From assembly GCA_019413925.1 (NCBI GenBank), contig DXMY01000031.1, forward strand, positions 5,427 to 69,426: 64,000 nt of DNA. The letters are read 5' to 3'. The DNA is from Collinsella sp. (GTDB lineage: Bacteria > Actinomycetota > Coriobacteriia > Coriobacteriales > Coriobacteriaceae). Positions 8,124 to 60,814 of this stretch are shown one piece after another. Made by a program: the position numbers and the translations under genes. Positions within the stretch are counted from its first letter, which is position 1. Each line of letters starts with the position of its first letter. Under the pieces are notes generated by a model. It was not told the origin of the DNA, searched no databases, and saw nothing but the letters and a program-made list of their open reading frames with translations.

Positions 8124-10805
8124 CTAGTCCTCGAGCAGGTCCTCGATAAAGCCGACGCGGTAGTTTTTGAAGATGACCTCGCCGCCGTCTTGCGTGGCGT
8201 CCAGATCGACATCGCCCATGATGCCAAAGTCGTGGTCGCCATCCTCGTCGGCAAAGATCTGGTGCACGTGCCATACGTGCGCGGTCTTCTCGTCGGACTC
8301 ATCGATGGAAAACATCGCGGCGCTGCGGGCATCTCCGTCGGTGAGGATTTCCTCGTGCTGCTCGTGGTAAGCGTCGAGTGCTTTTTGCCAGCGGATCTCG
8401 CTCATGCCCCAGTCGTCGTCGAGCTCGCCCAGGTCGCGAACGTGCTCGCGGGCGGCAAGGGTCACGCGGCGGAAGAGCGCGTTGCGCACCAACAGCGTGC
8501 AGCCGCGGCGGTCCGCCACGACCTCGTCGATGCCCTGCGGCGGCGTGGTGTCGAGGGCTGCCGGGTTGCCAGCGTTCTCCCACTCGTCCACCAGGCTCGA
8601 GTCGACCGAGCGCACCACAAAGCCCAGCCACGAGATAATGTCGCGCAGGCGCTCGTCGCGCTTCTCGATGGGTACGGTGCGGTCGAGCGAACGGTAGGCC
8701 TCTGCCAGGTAGCGCAGCAAAATACCCTCGGAGCGGGCGATGCCGAGCTTTTGAATGTAGCCCTTAAAATCGCTCGCGCTTTCCAGCATATCGCGCAGAA
8801 CGCTCTTGGGAGAGAGCTGATAGTCGTTTGCCCAGGGTACTTCCTGGCAGTACTTGTCAAAAGCGGCGTCGAGCAAATTCTCGAGCGGCTTTTCGTACGT
8901 GACGTCTTGAATGCGCTCCAGACGCTCCTCATATTCGATGCCGTCGGCCTTCATCTCGGCCATAGCGCGATCGCGTGCTGCGCGCTCCTGTGCGCGCAGC
9001 ACCTGCTTGGGATCCTCGAGCGTTGCCTCGACCATTGAGATTAAGTCCATGGTATAGGTCTCGCTCTCGGGATCGAGCAGCTCCAACGCGGCAAGCAAGA
9101 ACGGCGAGAGCGGCTGATCGAGCGCGAAGTCCTCGGGCAGATCGACCGTCAGCGCATAGTCGATGTCTGGTGCGGCGTCAGCCGGGGCATCGGGTGCGGG
9201 CGGCACCTCGGCGCGCACGACGACGCCGGAATCGATGAGCGTGGCGAAGATTTCGTCGGCGCGAACCTCGAGTTTTGCCTTTTCCTCTGGCGTTTGCAGG
9301 CTTGTCTCGATGAGGTCGTGCACGCGGGCGCGAGCATCGCCGCCCTGCTCGACCACGCTAATCACCATGGAGTGTGTGATGCGCAGGCGCGGCTTGAGCG
9401 TCTCGGGCTGCGTCTCGATCAGGCGCTCAAAGGTCTGCTTGTTCCAGGTGACAAAGCCCTCGGGGGCCTTTTTCTTTTTAATCTTACGGAGTTTTTTGGG
9501 GTCGTCGCCTGCTTTGGTCATAAGCTTGGCATTCTCGATCTCGTGCTCGGGTGCCTCGGCAATCACCATGCCCTCGGTATCGAAGCCCGAGCGGCCGGCA
9601 CGACCGGCAATCTGATGGAACTCACGGGCGCGCAGACGACGCATCTTGTAGCCATCGAACTTGGTGAGCGCGGTGAGGACCACGGTGTGGATGGGTACGT
9701 TGATGCCGACGCCGAGCGTATCAGTACCGCAGATGACGGGCAGCAGGCCCTGCTGTGCCAAGCGCTCGACCAGCAGGCGATAGCGCGGCAACATGCCAGC
9801 ATGGTGCACGCCGACGCCGCAGCCGAGCAAGCGCTTGAGGATCTTGCCGAAGGCCGTCGAGAAGCTCGTTCCCTTTGCCGCTTCTTTGATGGCTTCGCGC
9901 TGCTCCTTGCTGGCGATGCCAAAATTGGCGAGCGACTGCGCCGTCGCAAGGGCGGCATCCTGGCTAAAGTGCACGATATAGAGCGGGGCCTCGCCACGGC
10001 GCATGGCGAGCTCGACGGTGCCCTCGAGGGAGGTCGTCACATAGTCGTAGCTCAGCGGAACAGGACGCGGGGCGTCGACAACCAAGTCGCAAGCAGCGCC
10101 GGTGTGCTCCTCGAGTGAGGCGGCGATGGCAGTGACATCGCCGAGCGTGGCGCTCATGAGCATAAACTGCGTGTGGGGCAGGGTGAGCAACGGCACCTGC
10201 CAGGCCCAACCGCGATCGGGGTCGGCAAAGTAGTGGAACTCATCCATGGCCACGCAGCCCACATCGGCGTCCTCACCCTCGCGCAGCGCATCGTTAGCAA
10301 GGATTTCGGCCGTGCAGCAGATGACGGGTGCCTTGGTGTTGATATGCGTGTCGCCGGTGATCATGCCGACGTTATCGCGGCCGAGCACCTGCACAAGGTC
10401 GAAGAACTTTTCGCTGACCAGGGCCTTGATGGGGGCCGTGTAATAACAACGCTTACCCTGCGCCATGCCCATAAAGAGCATGCCCAGCGCGACGAGCGAT
10501 TTACCCGATCCGGTCGGTGTGCCTAAGATGACGTGATCGCCGGCAGCCAGGTCCATGAGGGCCTCTTCTTGGTGATCCCACAGTTCAATACCGCGATCGC
10601 TCGTCCATTCAAAGAAACGCTCGAAGGCCTGGTCGGGCGTGAGCCATGGCTCGGGCTCACTGCCATCCTCGGGCTCCCACCAGGTGGGGGAGAGCGCGCC
10701 GAGCGAGCCAAACTTGGCTTCGGTTCCCGTGCCGCCCGAGAATGAGCTGGCGGCGCCGGCGCCGGAGACGGTGCTGGCGGCGGTATCTGTCGTGGTCTGT
10801 GCCAT
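8124..10805 (-). CDS. Ski2-like DEAD/DEAH-box helicase with long C-terminal extension (DUF3516-type)
   Basis: GTPTGSGKSL (motif I), MDEFHYFADPDRGWAW (motif II), SATL, QIAGRAGRSG (motif VI). About 400-aa C-terminal region as in actinobacterial DUF3516 helicases. Confidence 0.88.
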   Translation of the reverse strand: MAQTTTDTAASTVSGAGAASSFSGGTGTEAKFGSLGALSPTWWEPEDGSEPEPWLTPDQAFERFFEWTSDRGIELWDHQEEALMDLAAGDHVILGTPTGSGKSLVALGMLFMGMAQGKRCYYTAPIKALVSEKFFDLVQVLGRDNVGMITGDTHINTKAPVICCTAEILANDALREGEDADVGCVAMDEFHYFADPDRGWAWQVPLLTLPHTQFMLMSATLGDVTAIAASLEEHTGAACDLVVDAPRPVPLSYDYVTTSLEGTVELAMRRGEAPLYIVHFSQDAALATAQSLANFGIASKEQREAIKEAAKGTSFSTAFGKILKRLLGCGVGVHHAGMLPRYRLLVERLAQQGLLPVICGTDTLGVGINVPIHTVVLTALTKFDGYKMRRLRAREFHQIAGRAGRSGFDTEGMVIAEAPEHEIENAKLMTKAGDDPKKLRKIKKKKAPEGFVTWNKQTFERLIETQPETLKPRLRITHSMVISVVEQGGDARARVHDLIETSLQTPEEKAKLEVRADEIFATLIDSGVVVRAEVPPAPDAPADAAPDIDYALTVDLPEDFALDQPLSPFLLAALELLDPESETYTMDLISMVEATLEDPKQVLRAQERAARDRAMAEMKADGIEYEERLERIQDVTYEKPLENLLDAAFDKYCQEVPWANDYQLSPKSVLRDMLESASDFKGYIQKLGIARSEGILLRYLAEAYRSLDRTVPIEKRDERLRDIISWLGFVVRSVDSSLVDEWENAGNPAALDTTPPQGIDEVVADRRGCTLLVRNALFRRVTLAAREHVRDLGELDDDWGMSEIRWQKALDAYHEQHEEILTDGDARSAAMFSIDESDEKTAHVWHVHQIFADEDGDHDFGIMGDVDLDATQDGGEVIFKNYRVGFIEDLLED

Positions 10806-17529: not shown

Positions 17530-19974
17530 TTAGGCGTGGTCGCGCCAGCTGAGGACGCGCTGCTTCATGCCCTCTATGTCGAGCACGCCTTCGGCAAAGC
17601 CCTTGCGCACGAGCTCTTCGGGAACAAACTCGTCGTAGCGGTCAAAGTAAGGCACCTCGCCGGGATAGACGAGCTCGATGGGATTGAAGTCCTTCTCGGC
17701 CTCGGCGGCGAGCACCTCAAAGAACGTCTCCTCGTCGGCCTTCATCTTAAACTGCATAAAGTACGGGCGCGATGGGTCGAGTCCGCGAAGGCCCAGCTCC
17801 GCGGCACACTTAATCTTGAGCATGCGCTCGAGTGCCAAAAAGGCGTAACTGCCCAGCCAGGGGAAGAGTACCCAGGTGTCGCCACCCAGGTTGATGAGTG
17901 GCTTGGTTCCCGCACCCGAAATCTCGGCCGTATGGCGAGCCTGCGCCAAGCGGGCCCGCGCGTTACCCATAAGGTACGGATACGCGGCATGTTCATTGAG
18001 CGCTTTGCGCATGCGTTCGAGCACATGTGTGTTGATGTCGCCGGGGCAGTCGCCAAAGTAGGCCGGCACCCGGCCTTTGACCTGCGTGGCAAAGACGGTG
18101 TGGCGCTTCCAGTCCACTTCCTCGACAATCCAGCAGTGTCCGGCGATGGCGATGCGCTCACCGGGCGGAGGGGGGTTGACGATCGTGCCCAACTCGGCCG
18201 ACTCGCTGCGAACGGTGAACTCCTCGTTTTCCTGGAACACGGCGTAGAACTTAAAGTTGTTGATGATGCGCTCGCCCGCGAGGCCCACGATGAGCCCATC
18301 GCCCTCGGTGACCTGGATGTGGTCGATCTTGATGAGGTGACGCAGCAGCACGCGATAGTCATCGGCCGAGACGCGATGGAAATAGCTGAGCGTGAGCACG
18401 CGCTGGGCAAGTTCCGCCGGCGTGAGCTCTCCGGTGCTGGCGAGGGTCGACATGGTCTGGTGATAGAGCAGACTGTAGGGGAGTCGATCGAGCTCAGGCG
18501 GCTCGACCCACTTTTCCTCGCGATAGAGTTGTACGAGCGCGATGCTCTGGAGGAGTTTCCAAGGTATCGTTTCAGGCATCATCGTGCGCGGCTCGGGCTC
18601 TTCCTCGCGCATGACAAACCACATCTCGGGCGGAAGATCGCGGCGCCCCGTGCGGCCCATTCGCTGCAAAAAGGAGCTGACGGTAAACGGCGCGTCAATC
18701 TGGAAGGCGCGCTCCAGGCGGCCGATATCGATACCGAGCTCCAGCGTAGAGGTGGTGACGGTTGTCTGTGCCTGCTCCTCATCGCGCATGAGCTCTTCTG
18801 CCGTCTCGCGCAGCGATGCTGAAAGATTGCCGTGGTGGATGAGAAAGCGGTCGGGCTCGTGCCGGCTCTCGCAGTAGCTGCGCAGCATGGAGCACACGGC
18901 CTCTGCCTCCTCGCGCGAGTTGGCAAAGACCAGGCACTTGCGGCCGCGTGTGTGCTCAAAGATATAGCCCATGCCGGGGTCGGCGTTGTCTGGCGCCGTG
19001 TCGGTGGGGTTGAGTAATGCCTGTTCGGGTGCTCGGGGGATGTCGACTTCGCCCTCGGGGGCCGACGAAGTGCGGCGATCCCTGGAGGTAGCCTTGTCCC
19101 GTGCCCGCTCACGACGTTGACGGCGCTCCTCTTGTGTGAGCTGTCCGCTGTGACGCATGTCTTGGGCGCCGGCGGGCAGTGCCGCGGGTGCCGCTGCCTC
19201 AATGCGCTCGCACGCAAGCACTTCGGCCTCTTGAGGACCCATGCTCTCGAATCCTCGCTGCTGTGCCTGGGGACCCGAGTTGTAGAAGTGCTCCATGGAG
19301 ATACGCCACACGCGGCGCGGCTCCTCAAAGCGGGGGATGATGCAATCGCGTCCTGTTCCCTGCGAGAGGAAGGCACCCGTACGCTCGGGGTCACCGATGG
19401 TGGCCGAAAGGCCGATGCGGCGGGGCTGCACGCCTGCCATGCGCGAGAGGCGCTCGATAAGGCAGAGCGTCTGACCGCCGCGGTCGCCGCGCATGAGCGA
19501 ATGGACCTCGTCGATGACCACGTAGCGCAGGTCGCAGAACATGCGCGGGATCGCCATGTGCTTATGGATTAAGAGCGCCTCGAGTGACTCGGGCGTAATC
19601 TGCAAGATGCCGCTCGGTTTTTTTATGAGCTTAGCCTTGTGCGACTGCGAGACATCGCCATGCCAGTGCCAGACAGGGATATCGGCCTCTTCGCAGAGGT
19701 CGTTGAGACGGACGAACTGATCATTGATGAGCGCTTTGAGGGGGCCGATGTAGAGGGCGCCTACGCTCGCGGGCGGGTTCTCCCAAAACTCGGTCAGGAT
19801 GGGAAAGAAGGCTGCCTCGGTTTTGCCGGAAGCCGTGGATGCCGTCAGGAGCACATTATCTTGCGTGTTAAAGATGGCGTCTGCCGCTGCAACCTGGATA
19901 GAGCGCAGACTCTCCCAATCGTGGGAGTAGATGAAGTCTTGGATAAACGGAGCATATCGGTCAAAGGCGTTCAC
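17530..19974 (-). CDS. Lhr-like DEVH-box superfamily-2 helicase (SngC-like)
   Basis: TASGKTEAA (I), VIDEVHS (II), SATIG (III), QRMGRTGRR (VI). GTG at 19974 has AGGAGG 4 nt upstream (track start is TTG at 19989). Long C-terminal domain. Confidence 0.85.
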   Translation of the reverse strand: MNAFDRYAPFIQDFIYSHDWESLRSIQVAAADAIFNTQDNVLLTASTASGKTEAAFFPILTEFWENPPASVGALYIGPLKALINDQFVRLNDLCEEADIPVWHWHGDVSQSHKAKLIKKPSGILQITPESLEALLIHKHMAIPRMFCDLRYVVIDEVHSLMRGDRGGQTLCLIERLSRMAGVQPRRIGLSATIGDPERTGAFLSQGTGRDCIIPRFEEPRRVWRISMEHFYNSGPQAQQRGFESMGPQEAEVLACERIEAAAPAALPAGAQDMRHSGQLTQEERRQRRERARDKATSRDRRTSSAPEGEVDIPRAPEQALLNPTDTAPDNADPGMGYIFEHTRGRKCLVFANSREEAEAVCSMLRSYCESRHEPDRFLIHHGNLSASLRETAEELMRDEEQAQTTVTTSTLELGIDIGRLERAFQIDAPFTVSSFLQRMGRTGRRDLPPEMWFVMREEEPEPRTMMPETIPWKLLQSIALVQLYREEKWVEPPELDRLPYSLLYHQTMSTLASTGELTPAELAQRVLTLSYFHRVSADDYRVLLRHLIKIDHIQVTEGDGLIVGLAGERIINNFKFYAVFQENEEFTVRSESAELGTIVNPPPPGERIAIAGHCWIVEEVDWKRHTVFATQVKGRVPAYFGDCPGDINTHVLERMRKALNEHAAYPYLMGNARARLAQARHTAEISGAGTKPLINLGGDTWVLFPWLGSYAFLALERMLKIKCAAELGLRGLDPSRPYFMQFKMKADEETFFEVLAAEAEKDFNPIELVYPGEVPYFDRYDEFVPEELVRKGFAEGVLDIEGMKQRVLSWRDHA

Positions 19975-20055
19975 GGGGCCTCCTCTCAAATACGAATCTC
20001 TTAACGCGGTGAGCAGTGGCTCGCTACATTACTGTCTCGACGTTTGCCCAGATAA

Positions 20056-54873: not shown

Positions 54874-55150
54874 ATGCGCTTGTGACTCCCTTTGCCCGTG
54901 AACCCGTTTTTGAATGGATATGCTAGACGCTCGCATGCGTCCGTGCGTCAGAAACGCTCGAATATTTCGAGGCTATTACCGGCATCGTTTACCGAAACCG
55001 CGGCGTGCTGCGGCGATTTGCGTCTGCTCTGCACGGTATAATAAATCCGTTCAACAGATCTGCCTGCCGAAGCGGGCATACACAGAGGACTCATCGCTAT
55101 GAACCGTGAGAGGTATCGCGGCGACCTGCCCCTATCGGGGGTGGGCGCCT

Positions 55151-58100
55151 ATGTCATCGCTTAAGACGACGCATCGCTGGGCGGTCGCTCAGCAAAACCC
55201 CGAGCTCGAAAAGGAGCTTTCGGCTGGCCTGGGCATTACCGGGCTGGTGGCGCGTATTATGGTTGCGCACGGCATTACATCCATCGAAGAAGGTCAGCTG
55301 TTTTTGACGCCTTCGCTCGATCGCGACTGGGCCGACCCACTCATTATCCCGGGCATGTCGGTCGTTGCCGACCGCGTCGAGCGTGCTATTTGCAACCACG
55401 AGCACATTGCGGTCTTTGGCGATTTTGACGTTGACGGTATTACGTCGACCTGTCTGTTGACCGAGGCACTACGCACGTTTGGCGCCGATGTCACGCCGTT
55501 TATTCCGCATCGCTTTGACGAGGGTTACGGTCTTTCGCGCGCGGCGCTCGACCGCGTTAACGAGCTCGCTCGCCCCCAGCTGATCGTGACCGTCGATAAC
55601 GGCATTGCCGCCAAGGAAGAGGTTTCCTATCTGGAGAGCCTGGGGATCGATTTGGTGGTCACGGACCATCACGAGCCCTCCGACCAGGTGCCGCAGGGTG
55701 TGCCCCTGACCGACCCCAAGCTCGAGGATGAGGGGCCCTCGCGTGAACTTGCCGGTGCTGGTGTGGCGCTCAAGCTGGTGCAAGTCCTGGGTGAGCGCCT
55801 GGGCAAGCCGTCGTATTGGCGTTCGCTAATCGAGGTCGCGGCGCTGGGCACCGTGTCCGACATGATGCCGCTCACGCCCGAGAACCGCGCGTTGGTCGCC
55901 GAGGGCATCCAGCAGATGCGCGTGACGGCTCGTCCCGGCTACATCGCGCTGGCAGCGCTCGCCAAGGCCGACCTCTCTAGCATTACGGCCGATGGCCTGT
56001 CGTTTTCGCTCATTCCCCGCTTGAACGCCGCCGGTCGCATGGCCGATCCCAAGCTGGCGCTCGACCTGCTGCTTGCCCGCGATCCTATCGAGGCAAGCGC
56101 GCTGGCGGCCGAGCTCGAGGAGATCAACCGTCAGCGCCGCGAGATCGAAGCGGAGCTCACACGCGACGCCATGGCAAAGGTCGAGGAGACTTATGATGGC
56201 GGTCGCGCAATCGTCGTGGGTGGCGAGGGCTGGCACGAGGGCGTCAAGGGTATCGTAGCGAGCCGTCTGACCAACCGTTATCACGTGCCGGCGCTGCTCT
56301 TTTCGATCGAGGACGGCGTTGCACGCGGATCGGGCCGCTCGGTGGGCAAGGTCAACCTGTTCGATGCCGTAGAGCGCTGCTCGGATCTGCTGATTCGCCG
56401 CGGCGGGCATGCGGGTGCGGTGGGCGTGACCATCGAGGCGTCCAAGCTCGACGAGTTCCGTCGTCGCCTTTCGGCCGTGCTATCGGAGCTTCCCGCCGAT
56501 GACTTTGAGGACACTGACGAGGTTGCCGCCACCGTTGACCTCTCCGAGCTAAATATCGAGACTATCGAGCAGATTTCTCGTCTTGAGCCGTTTGGCCAGG
56601 GCAATAAGGTGCCGCTGTTGGCGGCCGAGGGCGTGACGATGTGCGATCGCGCCGTGGTGGGCAAAACCGGCGAGCACATGCGCTTTGTGGCGACTGATGG
56701 CGCCGCGAGTGTGCCGGCCATCATGTTCCGCGTGCCGCAGATCGATAGGCTCATCAATTGCGACAGCGCCGTCGACTTGGTATTCGAGGCCGTGGCCGAG
56801 CATTGGCAGGGACGCGTGAAGCCCAAGCTCATGATCAAGGATGTCTTGGTGCGTGATACCACGGCGCCCAATATCGACGATCCGGCGTGCGAGCTTCGTC
56901 GCGGCGTGCAACCGGCGGACTTAGGCCCGCGCCTGGAGTCGCGTAAACGCGAGACGCTCGCCCAGCTTTCTTATACCGAGCTCACGCGCTCGCTTATCCA
57001 TAGCTTTATCGGCTCGAACCAGCCACATCGCGCGCAGGTCGAGGCACTCGACGCGCTCGCCGACCACCAGAGCGTTTTGGCCGTTATGGGGACGGGACGT
57101 GGTAAGTCTCTGATTTTCCACGTGCACGCCGCACGCGAGGCGGTCCTTCGCGGTCGCGCGAGCATCTTTGTCTATCCGCTGCGCGCGCTCGTTGCCGACC
57201 AGGCCTATCATCTTTCATCGACGATGGCTGCGCTCGGCATTGGCGTGGGCGTGTTGACCGGCGAGACCGTGGAGGCAGCGCGCGATGACGTGTTTGCCGG
57301 CCTGGCTTCGGGCCGCACCGGCATCGTTCTCACGACGCCGGAGTTCCTGTCTATCCATCGCGATCGCTTTGCACGTTCTGGACGTATTGGCTTTGTCGTT
57401 ATCGATGAGGCACACCATGCCGGTCTTGCCAAAGGCGGCGACCGGAGCGCCTACCTCGACATGCCCGATATTCTCAAAGCCCTGGGCGACCCCGTTGTCA
57501 TGGCGGCAACGGCTACCGCGACGGCCCCGGTCGTGGCGGAGCTTGCTCGTGTATTGCCGATTACCAGGACGGTGGTCGACGAGACCGTTCGCGAGAACCT
57601 GCAACTCGAGGACGACCGTGACCTTGCGAGCCGCGAAAATCGCCTGGTGTCAATCGTGGCGACGGGGGAGAAGACCGTCATCTACGTCAACTCGCGCGAC
57701 CAGTCCGTGGCGCTTGCCAAGACGTTGCGCAAACGCGTGCCCGACTGCGCGACCCATATTGCGTTCTATAACGCCGGGCTTGCGCGCTCCGATCGCCGCC
57801 GTGTCGAGGAAGCGTTTCGCGACGGAAGCCTCAGTTGCATCGTTTCGACCTCTGCCTTCGGTGAGGGCGTCAACCTGCCCGATATCCGTCATGTCGTGCT
57901 CTACCACATGCCGTTTGGTGCGATTGAGTTTAACCAGATGAGTGGCCGTGCCGGCCGCGATGGACAGCCCGCCGTGATTCACCTGCTCTATTCGTCGCGT
58001 GACGCTCGTATTAATGAGCGCCTGCTCGATTGTTACGCGCCCGAGCGCGATGAGCTTGTCACTCTCTATCGAGCGCTGCAGACCATGTGGCGCTCCAACC

Positions 58101-58438
58101 GTGGCAAGACGGGGGGCGATTCATTCTGCGCGAGCGATATCGACATTGCGCAGATGTGTCTTGCCATCGATGCCCGCACGCCGGTCGACGAGCGCTCGGT
58201 GGAAAGCGGCCTGGGAATCTTCGAAGAACTCGGTTTCTGCCGCGTTTCGGGGTTTGACGATACGCGTCGCATCGCGATGGCGGAAAACCCCGGTCGCGTG
58301 CAATTAAGCAGGTCAATTCGCTATTTGGAGGGCTTGCGCTCGCGCATGGAGTTCACGGCTTTTCGGAGCTGGGCACTCGATTCGTGCGCTTCTGATATGC
58401 TAGCCAAAGTTAACCGCCCGATCGTACCGCGGGCCTAG
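55151..58438 (+). CDS. recJ: RecJ single-strand exonuclease fused to a RecQ-like SF2 helicase
   Basis: RecJ motifs are FGDFDVDGITS, VTVDNGI, VVTDHHEP and GGHAGAVG. After about residue 690 (numbering of the 1110-aa track ORF that starts at 55106) come MGTGRGKSLIF (I), VVIDEAHH (II), AATATAT (III), FGEGVNLPDIRHVV (V) and QMSGRAGRDGQPA (VI). It is one uninterrupted ORF. Confidence 0.85.
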   Translation: MSSLKTTHRWAVAQQNPELEKELSAGLGITGLVARIMVAHGITSIEEGQLFLTPSLDRDWADPLIIPGMSVVADRVERAICNHEHIAVFGDFDVDGITSTCLLTEALRTFGADVTPFIPHRFDEGYGLSRAALDRVNELARPQLIVTVDNGIAAKEEVSYLESLGIDLVVTDHHEPSDQVPQGVPLTDPKLEDEGPSRELAGAGVALKLVQVLGERLGKPSYWRSLIEVAALGTVSDMMPLTPENRALVAEGIQQMRVTARPGYIALAALAKADLSSITADGLSFSLIPRLNAAGRMADPKLALDLLLARDPIEASALAAELEEINRQRREIEAELTRDAMAKVEETYDGGRAIVVGGEGWHEGVKGIVASRLTNRYHVPALLFSIEDGVARGSGRSVGKVNLFDAVERCSDLLIRRGGHAGAVGVTIEASKLDEFRRRLSAVLSELPADDFEDTDEVAATVDLSELNIETIEQISRLEPFGQGNKVPLLAAEGVTMCDRAVVGKTGEHMRFVATDGAASVPAIMFRVPQIDRLINCDSAVDLVFEAVAEHWQGRVKPKLMIKDVLVRDTTAPNIDDPACELRRGVQPADLGPRLESRKRETLAQLSYTELTRSLIHSFIGSNQPHRAQVEALDALADHQSVLAVMGTGRGKSLIFHVHAAREAVLRGRASIFVYPLRALVADQAYHLSSTMAALGIGVGVLTGETVEAARDDVFAGLASGRTGIVLTTPEFLSIHRDRFARSGRIGFVVIDEAHHAGLAKGGDRSAYLDMPDILKALGDPVVMAATATATAPVVAELARVLPITRTVVDETVRENLQLEDDRDLASRENRLVSIVATGEKTVIYVNSRDQSVALAKTLRKRVPDCATHIAFYNAGLARSDRRRVEEAFRDGSLSCIVSTSAFGEGVNLPDIRHVVLYHMPFGAIEFNQMSGRAGRDGQPAVIHLLYSSRDARINERLLDCYAPERDELVTLYRALQTMWRSNRGKTGGDSFCASDIDIAQMCLAIDARTPVDERSVESGLGIFEELGFCRVSGFDDTRRIAMAENPGRVQLSRSIRYLEGLRSRMEFTAFRSWALDSCASDMLAKVNRPIVPRA

Positions 58439-58453
58439 GGGAAGGGGACCTCG

Positions 58454-60814
58454 ATGGACGCCGCAGCCCGTACCGCCCATGATTCCACCCTCCAGCCGTT
58501 TTCGGAGATGGAGCACTATAAACATGCCGATGAGCTGCCGCCCGAGATTATGGCGGACAGCTACGACAAGCTGGAGCGTCTGTGCCTAAAATATATGAAC
58601 GAGGACGACTTCTCCAATGTGGAGCAGGCCTACTGCTTTGCTGCCGAGAAGCACTGCAACCAAAAGCGGCGCTCGGGTGAGATGTACATTAACCATCCCG
58701 TCGAGGTAGCTATCATTCTGGCTGACCTCAAGATGGACTGCGATGTGGTGTGCGCCGCGTTGCTGCACGATACCGTCGAGGACACCGAGACCTCGCTTGC
58801 CGATGTTTCGGGTCTGTTTGGCGAAACCGTGGCAGGGCTCGTCGACGGCGTGACCAAGCTCACCAACATTGAAGTCGACAGCATGGACGAGAAGCAGGCG
58901 CTTACGCTGCGCAAGATGTTCCTCGCCATGTCCAAGGACATCCGCGTCATCATCGTCAAGCTCGCCGACCGCCTGCATAACATGCGCACGCTTGCCGCTC
59001 TGCGCGAGGACCGCCGCCTGTTTAAGGCACGCGAGACCATGGACGTGTACGCGCCTTTGGCCGACCGCCTGGGCATGAGTTCAATCAAGTGGGAGCTCGA
59101 GGACCTGTCCTTTTTCTACTTGGAGCCCGATGCCTACCAGCGCATCGCGCGCATGGTATCCGAGTCGCGCGAGGTTCGCGAGCGTTATCTGGCCGAGACC
59201 ATCAAGACGCTCACCGATGAGCTCAATCGCATTGGTCTTGAGGGCTTTCAGATCAACGGTCGTTCCAAGCACTATTGGTCCATCTATCAAAAGATGAAGC
59301 GCAAGGGCAAGGAGTTCTCCGAGATTTACGACCTGGTGGCGCTGCGCGTCATCACTCATTCGGTGCGCGATTGCTATTCCACGCTTGGTGCCGTGCATAC
59401 CCTGTGGCATCCCATGCCCGGTCGTTTTAAAGACTATATCGCCATGCCCAAGGTCAATAACTACCAATCGCTTCACACGACGGTTATCGGCCCCACGGCC
59501 CGTCCGCTCGAGATTCAGATTCGAACCTACGAAATGCACGAGCAGGCCGAGTATGGCATCGCTGCCCACTGGCTGTATAAGAAGTCGGGCGGATCGTCTG
59601 CCTCCAAGACTAACGATGCGCAGCGTCTGGACGACCAGATCAACTGGCTCAAGCACTCACTCGACTGGGCGGCGTCTGACGAGATCACCGATGCCAAGGA
59701 ATACCTGCATTCGCTGAAGGTCGACTTGTTCGACCAGGAAATTTTTGTCTTTACGCCCAAGGGCGAGGTCATGGCGCTTCGTGCCGGCTCTACACCGCTC
59801 GACTTTGCCTACGCCGTTCATACCGAGGTCGGTAACCACTGTGTCGGCGCCAAAATCAACGGTGCGGTGGCGCCGCTCACGCACGAGATCAAGACGGGTG
59901 ACCGTGTCGAGATTCTGACTAACAAGAGCTCTAAGCCGTCGCGCGATTGGCTCAAGATCGTCAAGACACCTTCGGCCAAGTCAAAGATTCGCCGTTATTT
60001 CACCGCCGCGACCAAGGATGACGACGCTGCCGCCGGCCGCGATATACTGGCCAAGGACCTGCGTAAGCGCGGGTATGGCATCTCTACGCCACGATCCACG
60101 CGTGCGCTCAACGCCGTGGCGGAGCAGTTTAACTTCAAGCAGCTCGAGGACCTTTTTGCAGCCGTTGGCGCGGGCAAGGTCGCCCCGCGCGCTGTGGGCA
60201 ATAAGGTCGAGCAAATCTTGGACCCCAAGCCCGAGGAACAGCTCACCAAGGCCGAGGCTATCGCCGAGGTCGTAAAGCAGCCCGCTCGCGGCTCCAACCG
60301 CAAGCCGCAAAAGCGCGGTAAGAGCGCCAGTAACGGCATTATCGTCAAGGGCGAGAGCAACAGCGGCCTGCTGGTCCGTCTGGCTCATTGCTGCAACCCC
60401 GTGACGGGCGACGACATCGTCGGCTTCATCACGCGCGGTCGTGGCGTTTCGGTGCATCGCGCCAACTGCCCCAACGTCAAGGGCCTTATGGAACATCCCG
60501 AGCGCATGATTGACGTAGAGTGGGATGGTGCTGCCGATACGCTTTTCCAGGTCGAGATTGTGGTCGAGTGCCTGGACCGCATGGGCCTGCTCAAGGACGT
60601 CACCATCGCCATTGGCGATGCAGGCGGCAATATTCTTTCCGCCGCCACGTCGACCAACCGCGAGGGTATTGCAACCTTGCGCTTTATGGTCGAGATCTCG
60701 GACGCGAGTGGTCTGGATCCGCTGCTGGCCTCTATCAGCAGCGTCGACTCGGTCTACGACGCGCGCCGCCTGATGCCCGGCGAGGGTGGAGCCCAGCTTA
60801 AGCGCCGCGTTTAG
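58454..60814 (+). CDS. relA: Bifunctional (p)ppGpp synthetase/hydrolase Rel (RSH long form)
   Basis: HD hydrolase HDTVEDT, synthetase blocks (YQSLHTTV, EIQIRT), TGS and ACT-like C-terminus. Confidence 0.95.
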   Translation: MDAAARTAHDSTLQPFSEMEHYKHADELPPEIMADSYDKLERLCLKYMNEDDFSNVEQAYCFAAEKHCNQKRRSGEMYINHPVEVAIILADLKMDCDVVCAALLHDTVEDTETSLADVSGLFGETVAGLVDGVTKLTNIEVDSMDEKQALTLRKMFLAMSKDIRVIIVKLADRLHNMRTLAALREDRRLFKARETMDVYAPLADRLGMSSIKWELEDLSFFYLEPDAYQRIARMVSESREVRERYLAETIKTLTDELNRIGLEGFQINGRSKHYWSIYQKMKRKGKEFSEIYDLVALRVITHSVRDCYSTLGAVHTLWHPMPGRFKDYIAMPKVNNYQSLHTTVIGPTARPLEIQIRTYEMHEQAEYGIAAHWLYKKSGGSSASKTNDAQRLDDQINWLKHSLDWAASDEITDAKEYLHSLKVDLFDQEIFVFTPKGEVMALRAGSTPLDFAYAVHTEVGNHCVGAKINGAVAPLTHEIKTGDRVEILTNKSSKPSRDWLKIVKTPSAKSKIRRYFTAATKDDDAAAGRDILAKDLRKRGYGISTPRSTRALNAVAEQFNFKQLEDLFAAVGAGKVAPRAVGNKVEQILDPKPEEQLTKAEAIAEVVKQPARGSNRKPQKRGKSASNGIIVKGESNSGLLVRLAHCCNPVTGDDIVGFITRGRGVSVHRANCPNVKGLMEHPERMIDVEWDGAADTLFQVEIVVECLDRMGLLKDVTIAIGDAGGNILSAATSTNREGIATLRFMVEISDASGLDPLLASISSVDSVYDARRLMPGEGGAQLKRRV

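What the first reader, a model, noticed from the sequence alone, without database searches (positions are those of the whole stretch)
55151..58438. Single polypeptide combining RecJ 5'-3' exonuclease and a RecQ-like helicase core
One uninterrupted 1095-codon ORF carries all the RecJ DHH/DHHA1 motifs (DVDGITS, DNGI, DHH, GGH) in its first ~640 residues. These are followed by a complete SF2 helicase core with RecQ-type motifs (GTGRGKS, DEAH, FGEGVNLPDIRHV, QMSGRAGRDG). RecQ and RecJ act together in RecFOR-pathway end resection. A covalent fusion would therefore be a self-contained resection machine and a Rosetta-stone confirmation of that partnership. The position upstream of rel matches the usual recJ locus.
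Basis: seen in the sequence. Interest (0 to 1): 0.7.

Follow-up and report, generated by a model that had tools for sequence, protein, structure and literature searches.

The report
RecJ exonuclease with built-in RecQ-like helicase
This gut Collinsella bacterium's only visible recJ gene encodes one 1095-residue protein that joins the RecJ DNA-end-chewing nuclease to an intact RecQ-like unwinding motor; the fusion is real and strongly conserved, databases label it only "RecJ", and no study of it turned up.

Summary
Window 55151-58438 (+) is one uninterrupted 1095-codon ORF. Residues 32-565 pass NCBI's RecJ equivalog model. Residues 616-965 are a complete SF2 motor whose nearest relatives by sequence and by fold are RecQ, WRN and BLM.

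It is not an assembly artefact. All 80 Collinsella species-representative genomes carry it gap-free. dN/dS is 0.03 for the RecJ part, 0.01 for the helicase and 0.02 for the C-terminus. The catalytic residues of both halves are invariant in 52 relatives down to 28% identity.

The helicase is RecQ-like but not a RecQ. It scores below the RecQ family cut-off and has no Zn-binding cysteines, no aromatic-loop aromatics and no HRDC domain.

- This is the standard RecJ of Coriobacteriia, and it also occurs in Ca. Aquicultoria and in a Bacillota MAG, always at the canonical recJ-rel locus.
- Most members also carry a HIRAN (3'-end-binding) domain between nuclease and helicase. Collinsella has lost it.
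- The winged-helix tail, and by profile comparison helicase lobe 2, are homologous to the C-terminal domain of Firmicutes RecJ, which looks like a helicase relic.

The likely function is coupled 3'-5' unwinding and 5'-3' degradation. This is inferred, not shown.

The parts
55151..58438 (+). Complete gene for the 1095-aa RecJ / RecQ-like helicase fusion protein (includes the TAG stop).
   Evidence: Searches show the uninterrupted ORF. One search shows it intact in 80 genomes. The AlphaFold2 full-length model has pLDDT 89.2 and pTM 0.79.
55403..55852 (+). RecJ DHH catalytic domain (residues 85-234; motifs DVDG, DNG, DHH).
   Evidence: Pfam PF01368 at 80.7 bits. D91, D93, D95, D149, D172, H173 and H174 are invariant in 52 relatives.
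56207..56485 (+). RecJ DHHA1 domain (residues 353-445; GGH motif).
   Evidence: Pfam PF02272 at 51.1 bits. G418, G419 and H420 are invariant.
56528..56842 (+). RecJ OB-fold domain (residues 460-564).
   Evidence: Pfam PF17768 at 80.3 bits. The TIGR00644 recJ equivalog covers residues 32-565 at 472.9 bits, above its 396.9 cut-off. Top Foldseek hits are RecJ structures 8y30, 5f55 and 2zxo.
56846..56995 (+). Short linker (residues 566-615; 572-592 predicted disordered). This is where most family members carry a HIRAN domain of about 100-145 aa, which is deleted here.
   Evidence: pLDDT is below 50 for 572-592. The alignment shows a clean gap against HIRAN-bearing relatives. HIRAN PF08797 is found in P0143, P0146, P0174 and P0254. 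dN/dS is 0.106.
56996..57529 (+). Helicase lobe 1 (RecA1; residues 616-793): Q motif/motif 0 (Q629), Walker A GTGRGKS, Walker B DEAH, motif III ATAT.
   Evidence: Pfam DEAD at 63.1 bits. Q629, G651, K652, D752 and E753 are invariant. Best PDB sequence matches are RecQ 4tmu (2e-28), WRN and 1oyw.
57644..57964 (+). Helicase lobe 2 (RecA2; Pfam Helicase_C residues 832-938): motifs IV-VI, including QMSGRAGRDG.
   Evidence: Pfam PF00271 at 77.4 bits. R936 is invariant and R933 nearly so. Foldseek aligns 1oyw at rmsd 3.2 over 363 columns. dN/dS is 0.012.
57995..58435 (+). C-terminal module (residues 949-1095): helical hairpin, winged helix, two helices and a conserved NRPIxP tail. It is homologous to the C-terminal domain of Firmicutes RecJ (PF10141).
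   Evidence: The AF2 domain model has pLDDT 88.5. Foldseek returns only weak, generic winged-helix hits. No cysteine is conserved. PF10141 is hit by 16 of 30 family tails. hhalign to Firmicutes RecJ tails gives Prob 99-100, E 4.6e-18 and 1.4e-41.
58454..60814 (+). Downstream rel/spoT (786 aa), 15 nt after the stop with no terminator-like site between. It is probably co-transcribed and marks the canonical recJ locus.
   Evidence: TIGR00691 at 776.5 bits. No terminator lies between the genes. The sequence is shown.

Best explanation
The gene encodes the organism's housekeeping RecJ. Between its OB-fold domain and its C-terminal winged-helix domain sits an intact, ATP-hydrolysing, RecQ-like SF2 DNA helicase.

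Proposed mechanism (inferred):
1. The helicase binds the 3'-ended or template strand at a DNA end, gap or stalled fork and translocates 3'->5'. This unwinds the duplex.
2. The displaced 5'-ended strand is threaded into the covalently attached RecJ ring and degraded 5'->3'.
3. Both activities therefore move in the same direction along the duplex. They leave 3' single-stranded DNA for RecA loading.

One polypeptide would thus do what separate RecQ (or RecS) and RecJ do together in E. coli and B. subtilis. In most relatives a HIRAN domain, a module that binds the 3'-OH end, sits between the two enzymes. The Collinsella lineage has lost it, so this protein is the minimal two-enzyme version.

Shown here: the architecture, its conservation, intact catalytic motifs in both halves, purifying selection, fold assignments and locus orthology. 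Inferred: polarity, coupling and substrates.
For: Architecture and family assignment:
- The ORF is uninterrupted.
- The RecJ equivalog model is passed: 472.9 bits against a 396.9 cut-off, residues 32-565.
- The helicase half matches RecQ-family models best (TIGR00614, 163 bits). Its best PDB sequence matches are RecQ, WRN and RECQ4, ahead of Hel308. Its best fold matches after RecJ are RecQ, WRN, BLM and RECQL5 cores.

Conservation and selection:
- Across 52 fused relatives at 28-71% identity, the RecJ metal ligands (D91, D93, D95, D149, D172, H173, H174, H420) are invariant. So are the helicase residues Q629, K652, D752, E753 and R936.
- dN/dS over 81 Collinsella alleles is 0.027, 0.012 and 0.021 for RecJ, helicase and C-terminus.
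- The full-length AF2 model is confident, with only a 21-residue disordered linker (pLDDT 89.2, pTM 0.79). This suggests a defined inter-domain arrangement.

Locus and distribution:
- The gene sits directly upstream of rel. Relatives at 38-42% identity in a Bacillota MAG and in Ca. Oleimmundimicrobium sit in tgt-yajC-secD-secF-...-recJ-relA. So this is the orthologous recJ, not an accessory gene.
- No stand-alone version of this helicase clade was found. The two 'stand-alone' representatives examined are contig-edge fragments. Helicase-only representatives scatter as sisters of fused ones in the tree.

Pathway knowledge: RecJ 5'->3' exonuclease acts in concert with RecQ-like 3'->5' helicases in end resection and possibly in nascent-strand processing (PMC10804225, read; PMC3378886).
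Against: - There are no biochemical data. Helicase polarity and nuclease-helicase coupling are extrapolated from RecQ and RecJ.
- Several RecQ hallmarks are missing: the aromatic-rich loop aromatics (DEAHHAGLAKGGDRSAY against DEAHCISQWGHDFRPEY), the Zn-binding cysteines and an RQC-specific wedge. In RecQ these couple ATPase activity to unwinding (from my own knowledge). The motor could therefore be a translocase or a weak helicase.
- Whether Collinsella also has a separate recQ or addAB could not be tested. None lies in the 64-kb window, but the window does hold Hel308-like and Lhr-like helicases.
Confidence: 0.6

Rival explanations
1. The chemistry is the same but the main job differs. The protein processes stalled or reversed replication forks and daughter-strand gaps rather than two-ended breaks: it unwinds and degrades the nascent lagging strand and enlarges gaps for RecFOR. 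In the HIRAN-bearing ancestors, HIRAN would capture the nascent 3' end.
For: Most family members carry a HIRAN domain. HIRAN is a 3'-OH-end binding module used for fork remodelling in HLTF (from my own knowledge). [quoted passage not shown]
Against: The Collinsella protein has lost HIRAN entirely yet remains under very strong constraint. The HIRAN-dependent step is therefore dispensable in this lineage. Nothing in the sequence discriminates between substrates, and this reading is not exclusive of end resection.
Confidence: 0.25
2. The helicase half is not an unwinding enzyme. It is an ATP-driven ssDNA translocase that clears SSB or secondary structure and feeds the same strand to RecJ, acting as a processivity factor.
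For: The RecQ aromatic-loop aromatics, the Zn domain and a recognisable strand-separation wedge are absent.
Against: An SF2 RecQ-like motor moves 3'->5' while RecJ moves 5'->3'. On a single strand they would converge rather than travel together. The R765/Y768 positions of the loop, the hairpin and the winged-helix modules are all retained and conserved.
Confidence: 0.07
3. The helicase half is a catalytically dead structural or regulatory appendage, as the Firmicutes RecJ C-terminal domain appears to be.
For: Profile comparison shows that Firmicutes RecJ tails are homologous to helicase lobe 2 plus the winged helix. They lack lobe 1 and motifs V and VI (Pfam Helicase_C remnants in P0425 and P0450). 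Decay of this module has therefore happened elsewhere.
Against: In this protein and in 51 relatives, the Walker A lysine, the DE of DEAH, the Q motif and the motif VI arginines are invariant or nearly so. The helicase has the lowest dN/dS of the whole protein, 0.012.
Confidence: 0.04
4. It is an artefact: two adjacent genes (recJ and a helicase) joined by a sequencing or assembly frameshift. Alternatively, it is a mobile or defence helicase (DpdF- or PsyrT-like) inserted next to recJ.
For: PADLOC DpdF and PsyrT models score 193 and 160 bits on the helicase half. Both of those are themselves RecQ-like helicases.
Against: The reading frame is gap-free in 80 independent genomes and in more than 100 protein clusters. 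The fusion persists down to 28% identity across two phyla at the housekeeping recJ locus. No dpd or other defence genes are adjacent. The RecJ-type C-terminal domain follows the helicase, which an adjacent-gene artefact would not produce.
Confidence: 0.02

Closest known systems
Bacterial RecJ (TIGR00644; structures 5f55 D. radiodurans, 2zxo T. thermophilus, 8y30 S. aureus)
   Same: DHH-DHHA1-OB architecture with all catalytic motifs. It scores above the equivalog cut-off, gives the top fold matches and sits at the conserved locus upstream of rel. Its C-terminal winged-helix tail is homologous to PF10141 of Firmicutes RecJ.
   Different: About 480 residues of active-looking SF2 helicase lie between the OB fold and the C-terminal domain. 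No characterised RecJ has a motor domain.
RecQ-family helicases (E. coli/C. sakazakii RecQ 1oyw/4tmu; B. subtilis RecQ and RecS; M. smegmatis RqlH)
   Same: Two RecA lobes with motifs 0-VI. These are the best sequence, profile and fold matches. The loop between motifs II and III has the same length, with the R...Y retained. A helical hairpin and a winged helix follow lobe 2, as in the RecQ-C region.
   Different: It scores below the RecQ family cut-off. It has no Zn-binding tetracysteine (RecQ and RqlH both have one), no aromatic residues in the 'aromatic-rich loop', no HRDC and no ComF-like domain. Its winged helix has no specific RQC similarity. In this survey it occurs only fused to RecJ.
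E. coli RecQ + RecJ and B. subtilis RecQ/RecS + RecJ two-protein resection (RecF pathway)
   Same: The same two enzyme classes whose combined action resects 5' strands. The fusion is the covalent counterpart.
   Different: In the model organisms the partners are separate proteins brought together on SSB-coated DNA. Here they are one chain, and the helicase is a distinct RecQ-like clade.
Helicase-nuclease resection machines (RecBCD, AddAB, AdnAB) and eukaryotic Sgs1/BLM-Dna2 and WRN
   Same: The logic is the same: a motor and a nuclease are physically coupled so that unwinding feeds a strand to the nuclease. WRN is a RecQ helicase fused to an exonuclease. Sgs1-Dna2 pairs a 3'-5' RecQ helicase with degradation of the 5' strand.
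   Different: RecBCD, AddAB and AdnAB use SF1 motors and PD-(D/E)XK nucleases. The WRN exonuclease is a DEDD 3'-5' enzyme. Dna2 is an endonuclease with an SF1 motor. None uses a DHH/RecJ nuclease.
RecJ-HIRAN-helicase proteins of Atopobiaceae, other Coriobacteriia, Ca. Aquicultoria and a Bacillota MAG (annotated 'single-stranded-DNA-specific exonuclease RecJ')
   Same: They are direct homologues over the whole length (38-66% identity), sit at the same locus and share the conserved NRPIxP tail.
   Different: They carry a HIRAN domain of about 100-145 aa between the OB fold and the helicase. The window protein and its close Collinsella relatives have a linker of about 50 residues instead.

Membership tests
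Bacterial RecJ (TIGR00644 equivalog) | DHH motifs I-III (DxD, D, DHH) and the DHHA1 GGH motif | tested here: met
   All are present, and they are invariant in 52 and 90 relatives. Pfam finds DHH at 80.7 bits and DHHA1 at 51.1 bits.
Bacterial RecJ (TIGR00644 equivalog) | RecJ-specific OB-fold domain after DHHA1 | tested here: met
   PF17768 at 80.3 bits, residues 460-564. The AF2 model shows a beta-barrel at 490-567.
Bacterial RecJ (TIGR00644 equivalog) | Whole-protein score above NCBIfam's curated cut-off | tested here: met
   472.9 bits against a 396.9 cut-off, covering profile positions 4-546 of 546.
Bacterial RecJ (TIGR00644 equivalog) | Fold match to solved RecJ structures | tested here: met
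   Foldseek gives 8y30 at E 5.9e-46, 5f55 at 1.4e-44 and 2zxo at 3e-36 with TMt 0.74.
Bacterial RecJ (TIGR00644 equivalog) | 5'->3' ssDNA-specific exonuclease activity | not testable with these tools
   This needs a biochemical assay.
RecQ family helicase (TIGR00614 / TIGR01389) | SF2 motor with motifs 0, I, Ia, II (DEAH), III, IV, V, VI | tested here: met
   Pfam finds DEAD and Helicase_C. The residue-level alignment to RecQ 4tmu runs over 357 residues. Q629, K652, D752, E753 and R936 are invariant.
RecQ family helicase (TIGR00614 / TIGR01389) | Score above the curated family cut-off | tested here: not met
   TIGR00614 scores 163.2 against 219.8. TIGR01389 scores 158.9 against 640.2. PRK11057 scores 116 against 1015.
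RecQ family helicase (TIGR00614 / TIGR01389) | Aromatic-rich loop between motifs II and III | tested here: not met
   The loop has the same length and retains R765 and Y768, but W, H and F are replaced: DEAHHAGLAKGGDRSAY against RecQ DEAHCISQWGHDFRPEY. The family consensus is DEAHHxxxxxxxxRxAY.
RecQ family helicase (TIGR00614 / TIGR01389) | Zn-binding subdomain with four conserved cysteines after lobe 2 | tested here: not met
   No column after residue 940 has more than 47% Cys in 90 relatives. Matches to RecQ end at about residue 965-980.
RecQ family helicase (TIGR00614 / TIGR01389) | RQC winged-helix domain | tested here: inconclusive
   A winged helix is predicted in the equivalent position. 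Foldseek finds only weak, generic winged-helix hits (best E 0.014, KAT6A; no RecQ RQC in the top 50). Pfam finds no RQC hit even at E<=10.
RecQ family helicase (TIGR00614 / TIGR01389) | HRDC domain (present in classical bacterial RecQ, not in all members) | tested here: not met
   No Pfam HRDC hit. The protein ends 50 residues after the winged helix.
RecQ family helicase (TIGR00614 / TIGR01389) | ATP-dependent 3'->5' unwinding | not testable with these tools
   This needs a biochemical assay.
RecJ-HIRAN-helicase family (uncharacterised; defined here) | RecJ core + RecQ-like helicase + PF10141-like winged-helix tail ending in NRPIxP, at the recJ locus | tested here: met
.
RecJ-HIRAN-helicase family (uncharacterised; defined here) | HIRAN domain between the OB fold and the helicase | tested here: not met
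   The window protein has no PF08797 hit and shows a clean alignment gap. The domain is present in 39 of the 54 complete fused sequences, the window protein included, and in all 120 top profile hits.
SF1 helicase-nuclease machines (RecBCD/AddAB/AdnAB) | UvrD-like SF1 motor(s) plus a PD-(D/E)XK nuclease | tested here: not met
   The motor is SF2 and RecQ-like, and the nuclease is DHH. The resemblance is functional only.
Dpd / PsyrTA defence helicases (DpdF, PsyrT) | Located in a dpd or toxin-antitoxin gene cluster | tested here: not met
   PADLOC HMMs hit the motor (193 and 160 bits). The neighbours, however, are a BASS transporter, cutC, rel, an MBL hydrolase and fba. The locus is the conserved recJ locus.

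The most novel reading that the evidence does not exclude
The RecJ-(HIRAN)-RecQ-like-helicase polypeptide is the ancestral, complete form of the 'long' RecJ of Gram-positive bacteria. It would be an autonomous single-chain end-resection and fork-processing machine that survives intact in Coriobacteriia and a few other lineages. The C-terminal domain of Bacillus, Staphylococcus and Clostridia RecJ (PF10141), for which I know of no assigned function, would be its fossil: helicase lobe 2 plus winged helix, stripped of lobe 1 and the ATPase motifs. In Collinsella the fused enzyme would replace a separate RecQ.
Probability: 0.4. Interest if true: 0.72.

Novelty: new variant of a known kind. Interest (0 to 1): 0.6.

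Why it matters
RecQ-type helicases and RecJ are the textbook two-protein alternative to RecBCD/AddAB for making recombinogenic 3' tails. How the two are coupled is known mainly from reconstitution and from shared binding to SSB.

A natural single-chain version has several uses:
- It lets the coupling be studied by structure and single-molecule methods without a complex that falls apart.
- It provides gene-fusion (Rosetta-stone-type) evidence for the partnership, although with a RecQ-like clade rather than RecQ itself.
- It adds a DHH-nuclease/SF2-motor design to the short list of helicase-nuclease architectures.

It occurs in Collinsella, whose genomes and metagenome contigs were plentiful in the collections searched, and across Coriobacteriia, whose DNA-repair repertoire has, as far as I know, not been studied.

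The HIRAN domain in most members links bacterial RecJ to recognition of 3' ends. The profile-level homology between the helicase's second lobe plus winged helix and the C-terminal domain of Firmicutes RecJ gives a testable origin for that domain in B. subtilis and S. aureus RecJ.

Tried and rejected
- **Assembly or frameshift artefact:** rejected. There are 80 gap-free genomes, more than 100 clusters, and low dN/dS in every structured segment.
- **A second recQ- or recJ-like gene in the window:** tblastn found none. It found only a Hel308-like and an Lhr-like helicase.
- **Stand-alone HIRAN-helicase or helicase-only relatives as the donor family:** the two I could inspect are truncated. P0188 starts at base 1 of its contig. 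P0162 has an open frame running to the contig edge. In the NJ tree such sequences scatter next to fused ones. I therefore found no evidence for an independent family.
- **RecQ Zn-finger, RQC or HRDC in the C-terminus:** not found by Pfam at E<=10, by cysteine conservation or by Foldseek.
- **Defence-system reading (DpdF/PsyrT):** rejected on gene context.
- **Literature:** nine full-text searches found no paper describing this fusion. The terms combined RecJ with RecQ and 'fusion', Coriobacteriia, Collinsella, HIRAN, Rosetta/'domain fusion', 'helicase-like C-terminal domain' and S. aureus RecJ. The RqlH paper (PMC3378886) describes a different RecQ-like clade that is not fused to RecJ. The library lacks most subscription journals, so absence there is not proof.
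- **Promoter and terminator scan:** uninformative, with counts at shuffle level.
- **The 34,235-member cluster of P0001:** it turned out to mix in 786-aa Rel proteins. Its size is therefore not a measure of this protein's abundance.

Full report
**1. The observation**

Window 55151-58438 (+) is a single open reading frame of 1095 codons plus a TAG stop. The longest ORF could start at GTG 55106. ATG 55151, however, is preceded by a GGGGGTGGG Shine-Dalgarno-like run, and gene callers give orthologues 1095 residues.

Pfam places the domains as follows, each far above its gathering score:
- DHH, residues 85-234
- DHHA1, residues 353-445
- RecJ_OB, residues 460-564
- DEAD, residues 628-793
- Helicase_C, residues 832-938

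The one correction is that the RecJ part ends near residue 565, not near 640.

**2. Real or artefact**

- A search of 5.8 billion proteins returned more than 100 clusters at 72-98% identity. All are 1095-1126 aa and all have the same domain set.
- A scan of one genome per GTDB species returned 80 loci, essentially all Collinsella or Coriobacteriaceae. Each gives a gap-free tblastn alignment over residues 1-1095.
- Nei-Gojobori dN/dS over 400 random pairs of 81 alleles is 0.027 for RecJ, 0.106 for the linker, 0.012 for the helicase and 0.021 for the C-terminus. The helicase is the most constrained segment.

A frameshift or an assembly join is excluded.

**3. What each half is**

*RecJ half.* Residues 32-565 score 472.9 bits on NCBIfam's RecJ equivalog TIGR00644, whose cut-off is 396.9. 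An AlphaFold2 model of the whole protein (90-sequence alignment, pLDDT 89.2, pTM 0.79, only residues 572-592 disordered) has RecJ crystal structures as its best PDB matches. These are S. aureus 8y30, D. radiodurans 5f55 and T. thermophilus 2zxo.

*Helicase half.* It matches RecQ-family models best:
- NCBIfam TIGR00614 gives 163 bits.
- Sequence matches to solved structures are RecQ 4tmu at 2e-28, WRN at 6e-27 and E. coli RecQ 1oyw at 5e-26, ahead of Hel308 at 7e-23.
- Fold matches are 4tmu, 1oyw (rmsd 3.2 A over 363 columns), WRN, BLM and RECQL5.

*It is not a RecQ by the family's own criteria:*
- It falls below both curated cut-offs: 163 against 219.8, and 159 against 640.
- The loop between motifs II and III keeps RecQ's length and its R...Y, but has lost the aromatic residues: DEAHHAGLAKGGDRSAY against DEAHCISQWGHDFRPEY.
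- No cysteine is conserved after lobe 2, so there is no Zn-binding module.
- There is no HRDC domain.

*C-terminal module.* After lobe 2 the model shows a helical hairpin, a winged helix and two further helices. Foldseek finds only weak, generic winged-helix matches for this module.

**4. Both enzymes look active**

I aligned 52 complete fused proteins drawn from 50%-identity cluster representatives. They are 28-71% identical to the window protein. The following residues are invariant or nearly so:
- RecJ: D91, D93, D95, D149, D172, H173, H174, G418, G419, H420.
- Helicase: Q629 (Q motif), G651, K652 (Walker A), D752, E753 (Walker B), R936, and R933 (nearly invariant).

**5. The family and its third domain**

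An exhaustive HMMER search with residues 566-1095 against 1.84 billion representatives found 393 proteins with E<=1e-30. Among the best 150, 51 are complete RecJ+helicase proteins of 1046-1276 aa.

In 39 of the 54 complete fused sequences (the window protein included), an extra 100-145 residues between the OB fold and the helicase form a Pfam HIRAN domain. The Collinsella protein and its nearest representative P0142 have a clean deletion there. P0147 has a decayed HIRAN. In a rough NJ tree, the HIRAN-less forms nest among HIRAN-bearing ones. HIRAN was therefore probably lost secondarily.

A profile search returned 120 further full-length members, all with HIRAN. Where named, they are all annotated 'single-stranded-DNA-specific exonuclease RecJ'. 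Their sources are Atopobiaceae, Parafannyhessea umbonata, Coriobacteriia, Actinomycetota, Ca. Oleimmundimicrobium (class Ca. Aquicultoria) and a Bacillota MAG.

The two 'stand-alone' helicase representatives I could inspect are contig-edge fragments. I found no evidence that this helicase clade exists outside RecJ.

**6. Locus**

In the window the gene lies 15 nt upstream of rel/spoT, with no terminator-like site between them. The relatives at 38-42% identity in the Bacillota MAG and in Ca. Oleimmundimicrobium lie in tgt-yajC-secD-secF-...-[fused recJ]-relA. This is the classical Gram-positive recJ neighbourhood. The fused gene is therefore the orthologous housekeeping recJ.

**7. The helicase sits inside RecJ, and Firmicutes RecJ appears to keep its remains**

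- Scanning 30 C-terminal tails (residues 955 to the end) against Pfam at a permissive threshold gave one recurrent family. It is PF10141, 'single-strand DNA-specific exonuclease C-terminal domain', hit by 16 of 30 tails with a best E of 3e-4.
- I compared profiles of the region after the OB fold with hhalign.
  - Tails of Bacillales-type RecJ (780-815 aa, 21 sequences) align to window residues about 816-1067, that is helicase lobe 2, the hairpin and the winged helix. Probability is 99.0% and E is 4.6e-18 over 203 columns.
  - Tails of Clostridia-type RecJ (870-950 aa, 23 sequences; Syntrophomonadaceae, Peptococcaceae, Desulfotomaculaceae) align at 100% probability and E 1.4e-41 over 263 columns.
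  - The two Firmicutes groups match each other over the same span.
  - The Firmicutes forms lack lobe 1, and motifs V and VI are not conserved in them.
- Some Clostridia-type RecJ proteins still trigger Pfam Helicase_C.
- S. aureus RecJ 8y30 aligns to the model over 1090 columns, that is across the helicase to the C-terminus. This is consistent with the profile result.

My inference is that the C-terminal domain of long Gram-positive RecJ is a degenerate relic of this helicase module, and that the fused protein is the intact form. The direction of change is inferred, not shown.

**8. Mechanism**

Established knowledge: RecJ degrades ssDNA 5'->3'. RecQ-like helicases move 3'->5'. Together they carry out AddAB/RecBCD-independent end resection, and they are proposed to process nascent lagging strands at stalled forks (PMC10804225; PMC3378886).

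The two polarities are complementary. A motor tracking one strand 3'->5' into a duplex displaces the 5'-ended partner strand in the direction RecJ needs. I therefore propose that the protein couples unwinding to degradation of the displaced 5' strand within one chain. In the ancestors, HIRAN would hold or sense the 3' end.

Shown: architecture, conservation, intact motifs, selection, folds and locus. Inferred: polarity, coupling and substrate.

Caveats:
- The RecQ features that couple ATPase activity to unwinding are missing (the loop aromatics, the Zn domain and a recognisable wedge).
- I could not inspect inter-domain geometry, because no coordinates were accessible.
- I could not test whether Collinsella also has a separate recQ. 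None lies in the window, which does encode Hel308-like and Lhr-like helicases.

**9. Rivals**

- Fork or gap processing rather than break resection is compatible and not exclusive.
- A same-strand 'feeder' translocase conflicts with the opposite polarities.
- A dead appendage conflicts with the invariant ATPase motifs and a dN/dS of 0.012.
- The artefact and defence-helicase readings are contradicted by conservation and context.

**10. Novelty and verdict**

The architecture is visible in databases: the precomputed Pfam strings show it, but the only name given is 'RecJ'. Nine full-text literature searches found no description of it. The library is incomplete, so prior mention elsewhere cannot be excluded.

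It is a new variant of a known kind: a helicase-nuclease built from a DHH nuclease and an SF2 RecQ-like motor. The 'RecQ' label must be softened to 'RecQ-like', and the resection-machine reading remains a well-motivated hypothesis.

I score interest at 0.6. A recombination specialist would find the fusion, the HIRAN link and the apparent helicase relic in Firmicutes RecJ worth bench work. It is, however, a conserved and already annotated gene rather than a categorically new system.

Noticed in passing
window 8124-10805 (-): An 892-aa SF2 helicase most similar to Hel308/Ski2-type DNA helicases. Its best NCBIfam score is 117 bits, far below any cut-off.
   Followed up: partly
window 17530-19989 (-): An 818-aa Lhr-like / ligase-associated DEXH-box-like helicase. 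It scores 194 bits on TIGR04121, below the cut-off. The 64-kb window therefore holds three SF2 DNA helicases.
   Followed up: partly
window 58412-58429 (residues N1088-P1093): The extreme C-terminal motif NRPIxP is nearly invariant across fused proteins down to 28% identity, although the model confidence there is low. It looks like a short docking motif for an unknown partner.
   Followed up: no
Firmicutes RecJ proteins P0417-P0523 (not in the window): The C-terminal domain of Bacillales- and Clostridia-type RecJ (PF10141) aligns by hhalign to helicase lobe 2 plus the winged helix of the fused family (Prob 99-100, E 4.6e-18 and 1.4e-41). It appears to be a helicase relic lacking lobe 1 and the ATPase motifs.
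   Followed up: partly
P0147 (1215 aa, 56% identical to the window protein): The HIRAN region is present in length but degenerate: the conserved GVTFEGRQ and NPxDxNAI motifs are lost. This looks like an intermediate on the way to the complete HIRAN deletion seen in Collinsella.
   Followed up: no
L082 12506-18178 (Ca. Oleimmundimicrobium contig JAUSCH010000129.1): About 7 kb of small ORFs lie between the fused recJ and relA. They include an AbiEii-family protein and a PhdYeFM/ParE toxin-antitoxin pair. This is an island interrupting the otherwise conserved recJ-relA adjacency.
   Followed up: no
protein cluster of P0001 (database, not the window): The 90%-identity cluster reported with 34,235 members also contains 786-aa Rel/SpoT proteins (P0123, P0124). 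This is a chimeric cluster, presumably bridged by a read-through or mis-called sequence, so the member count does not measure this protein's abundance.
   Followed up: partly
P0412 (1855 aa), P0415 (1203 aa), P0416 (1180 aa): Three further odd RecJ architectures appeared among metagenomic hits. One combines RecJ with PF10876 in an 1855-aa protein. One has RecJ with only Helicase_C detectable. One has RecJ with HIRAN but no detectable helicase domains.
   Followed up: no
window 55037-55042 and 58439-58453: A perfect TATAAT lies about 110 nt upstream of the start codon, with no good -35 element. Only 15 nt, carrying a GGGGAAGGGGA ribosome-binding-like run, separate the stop codon from the rel start. 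This suggests a recJ-rel operon.
   Followed up: no
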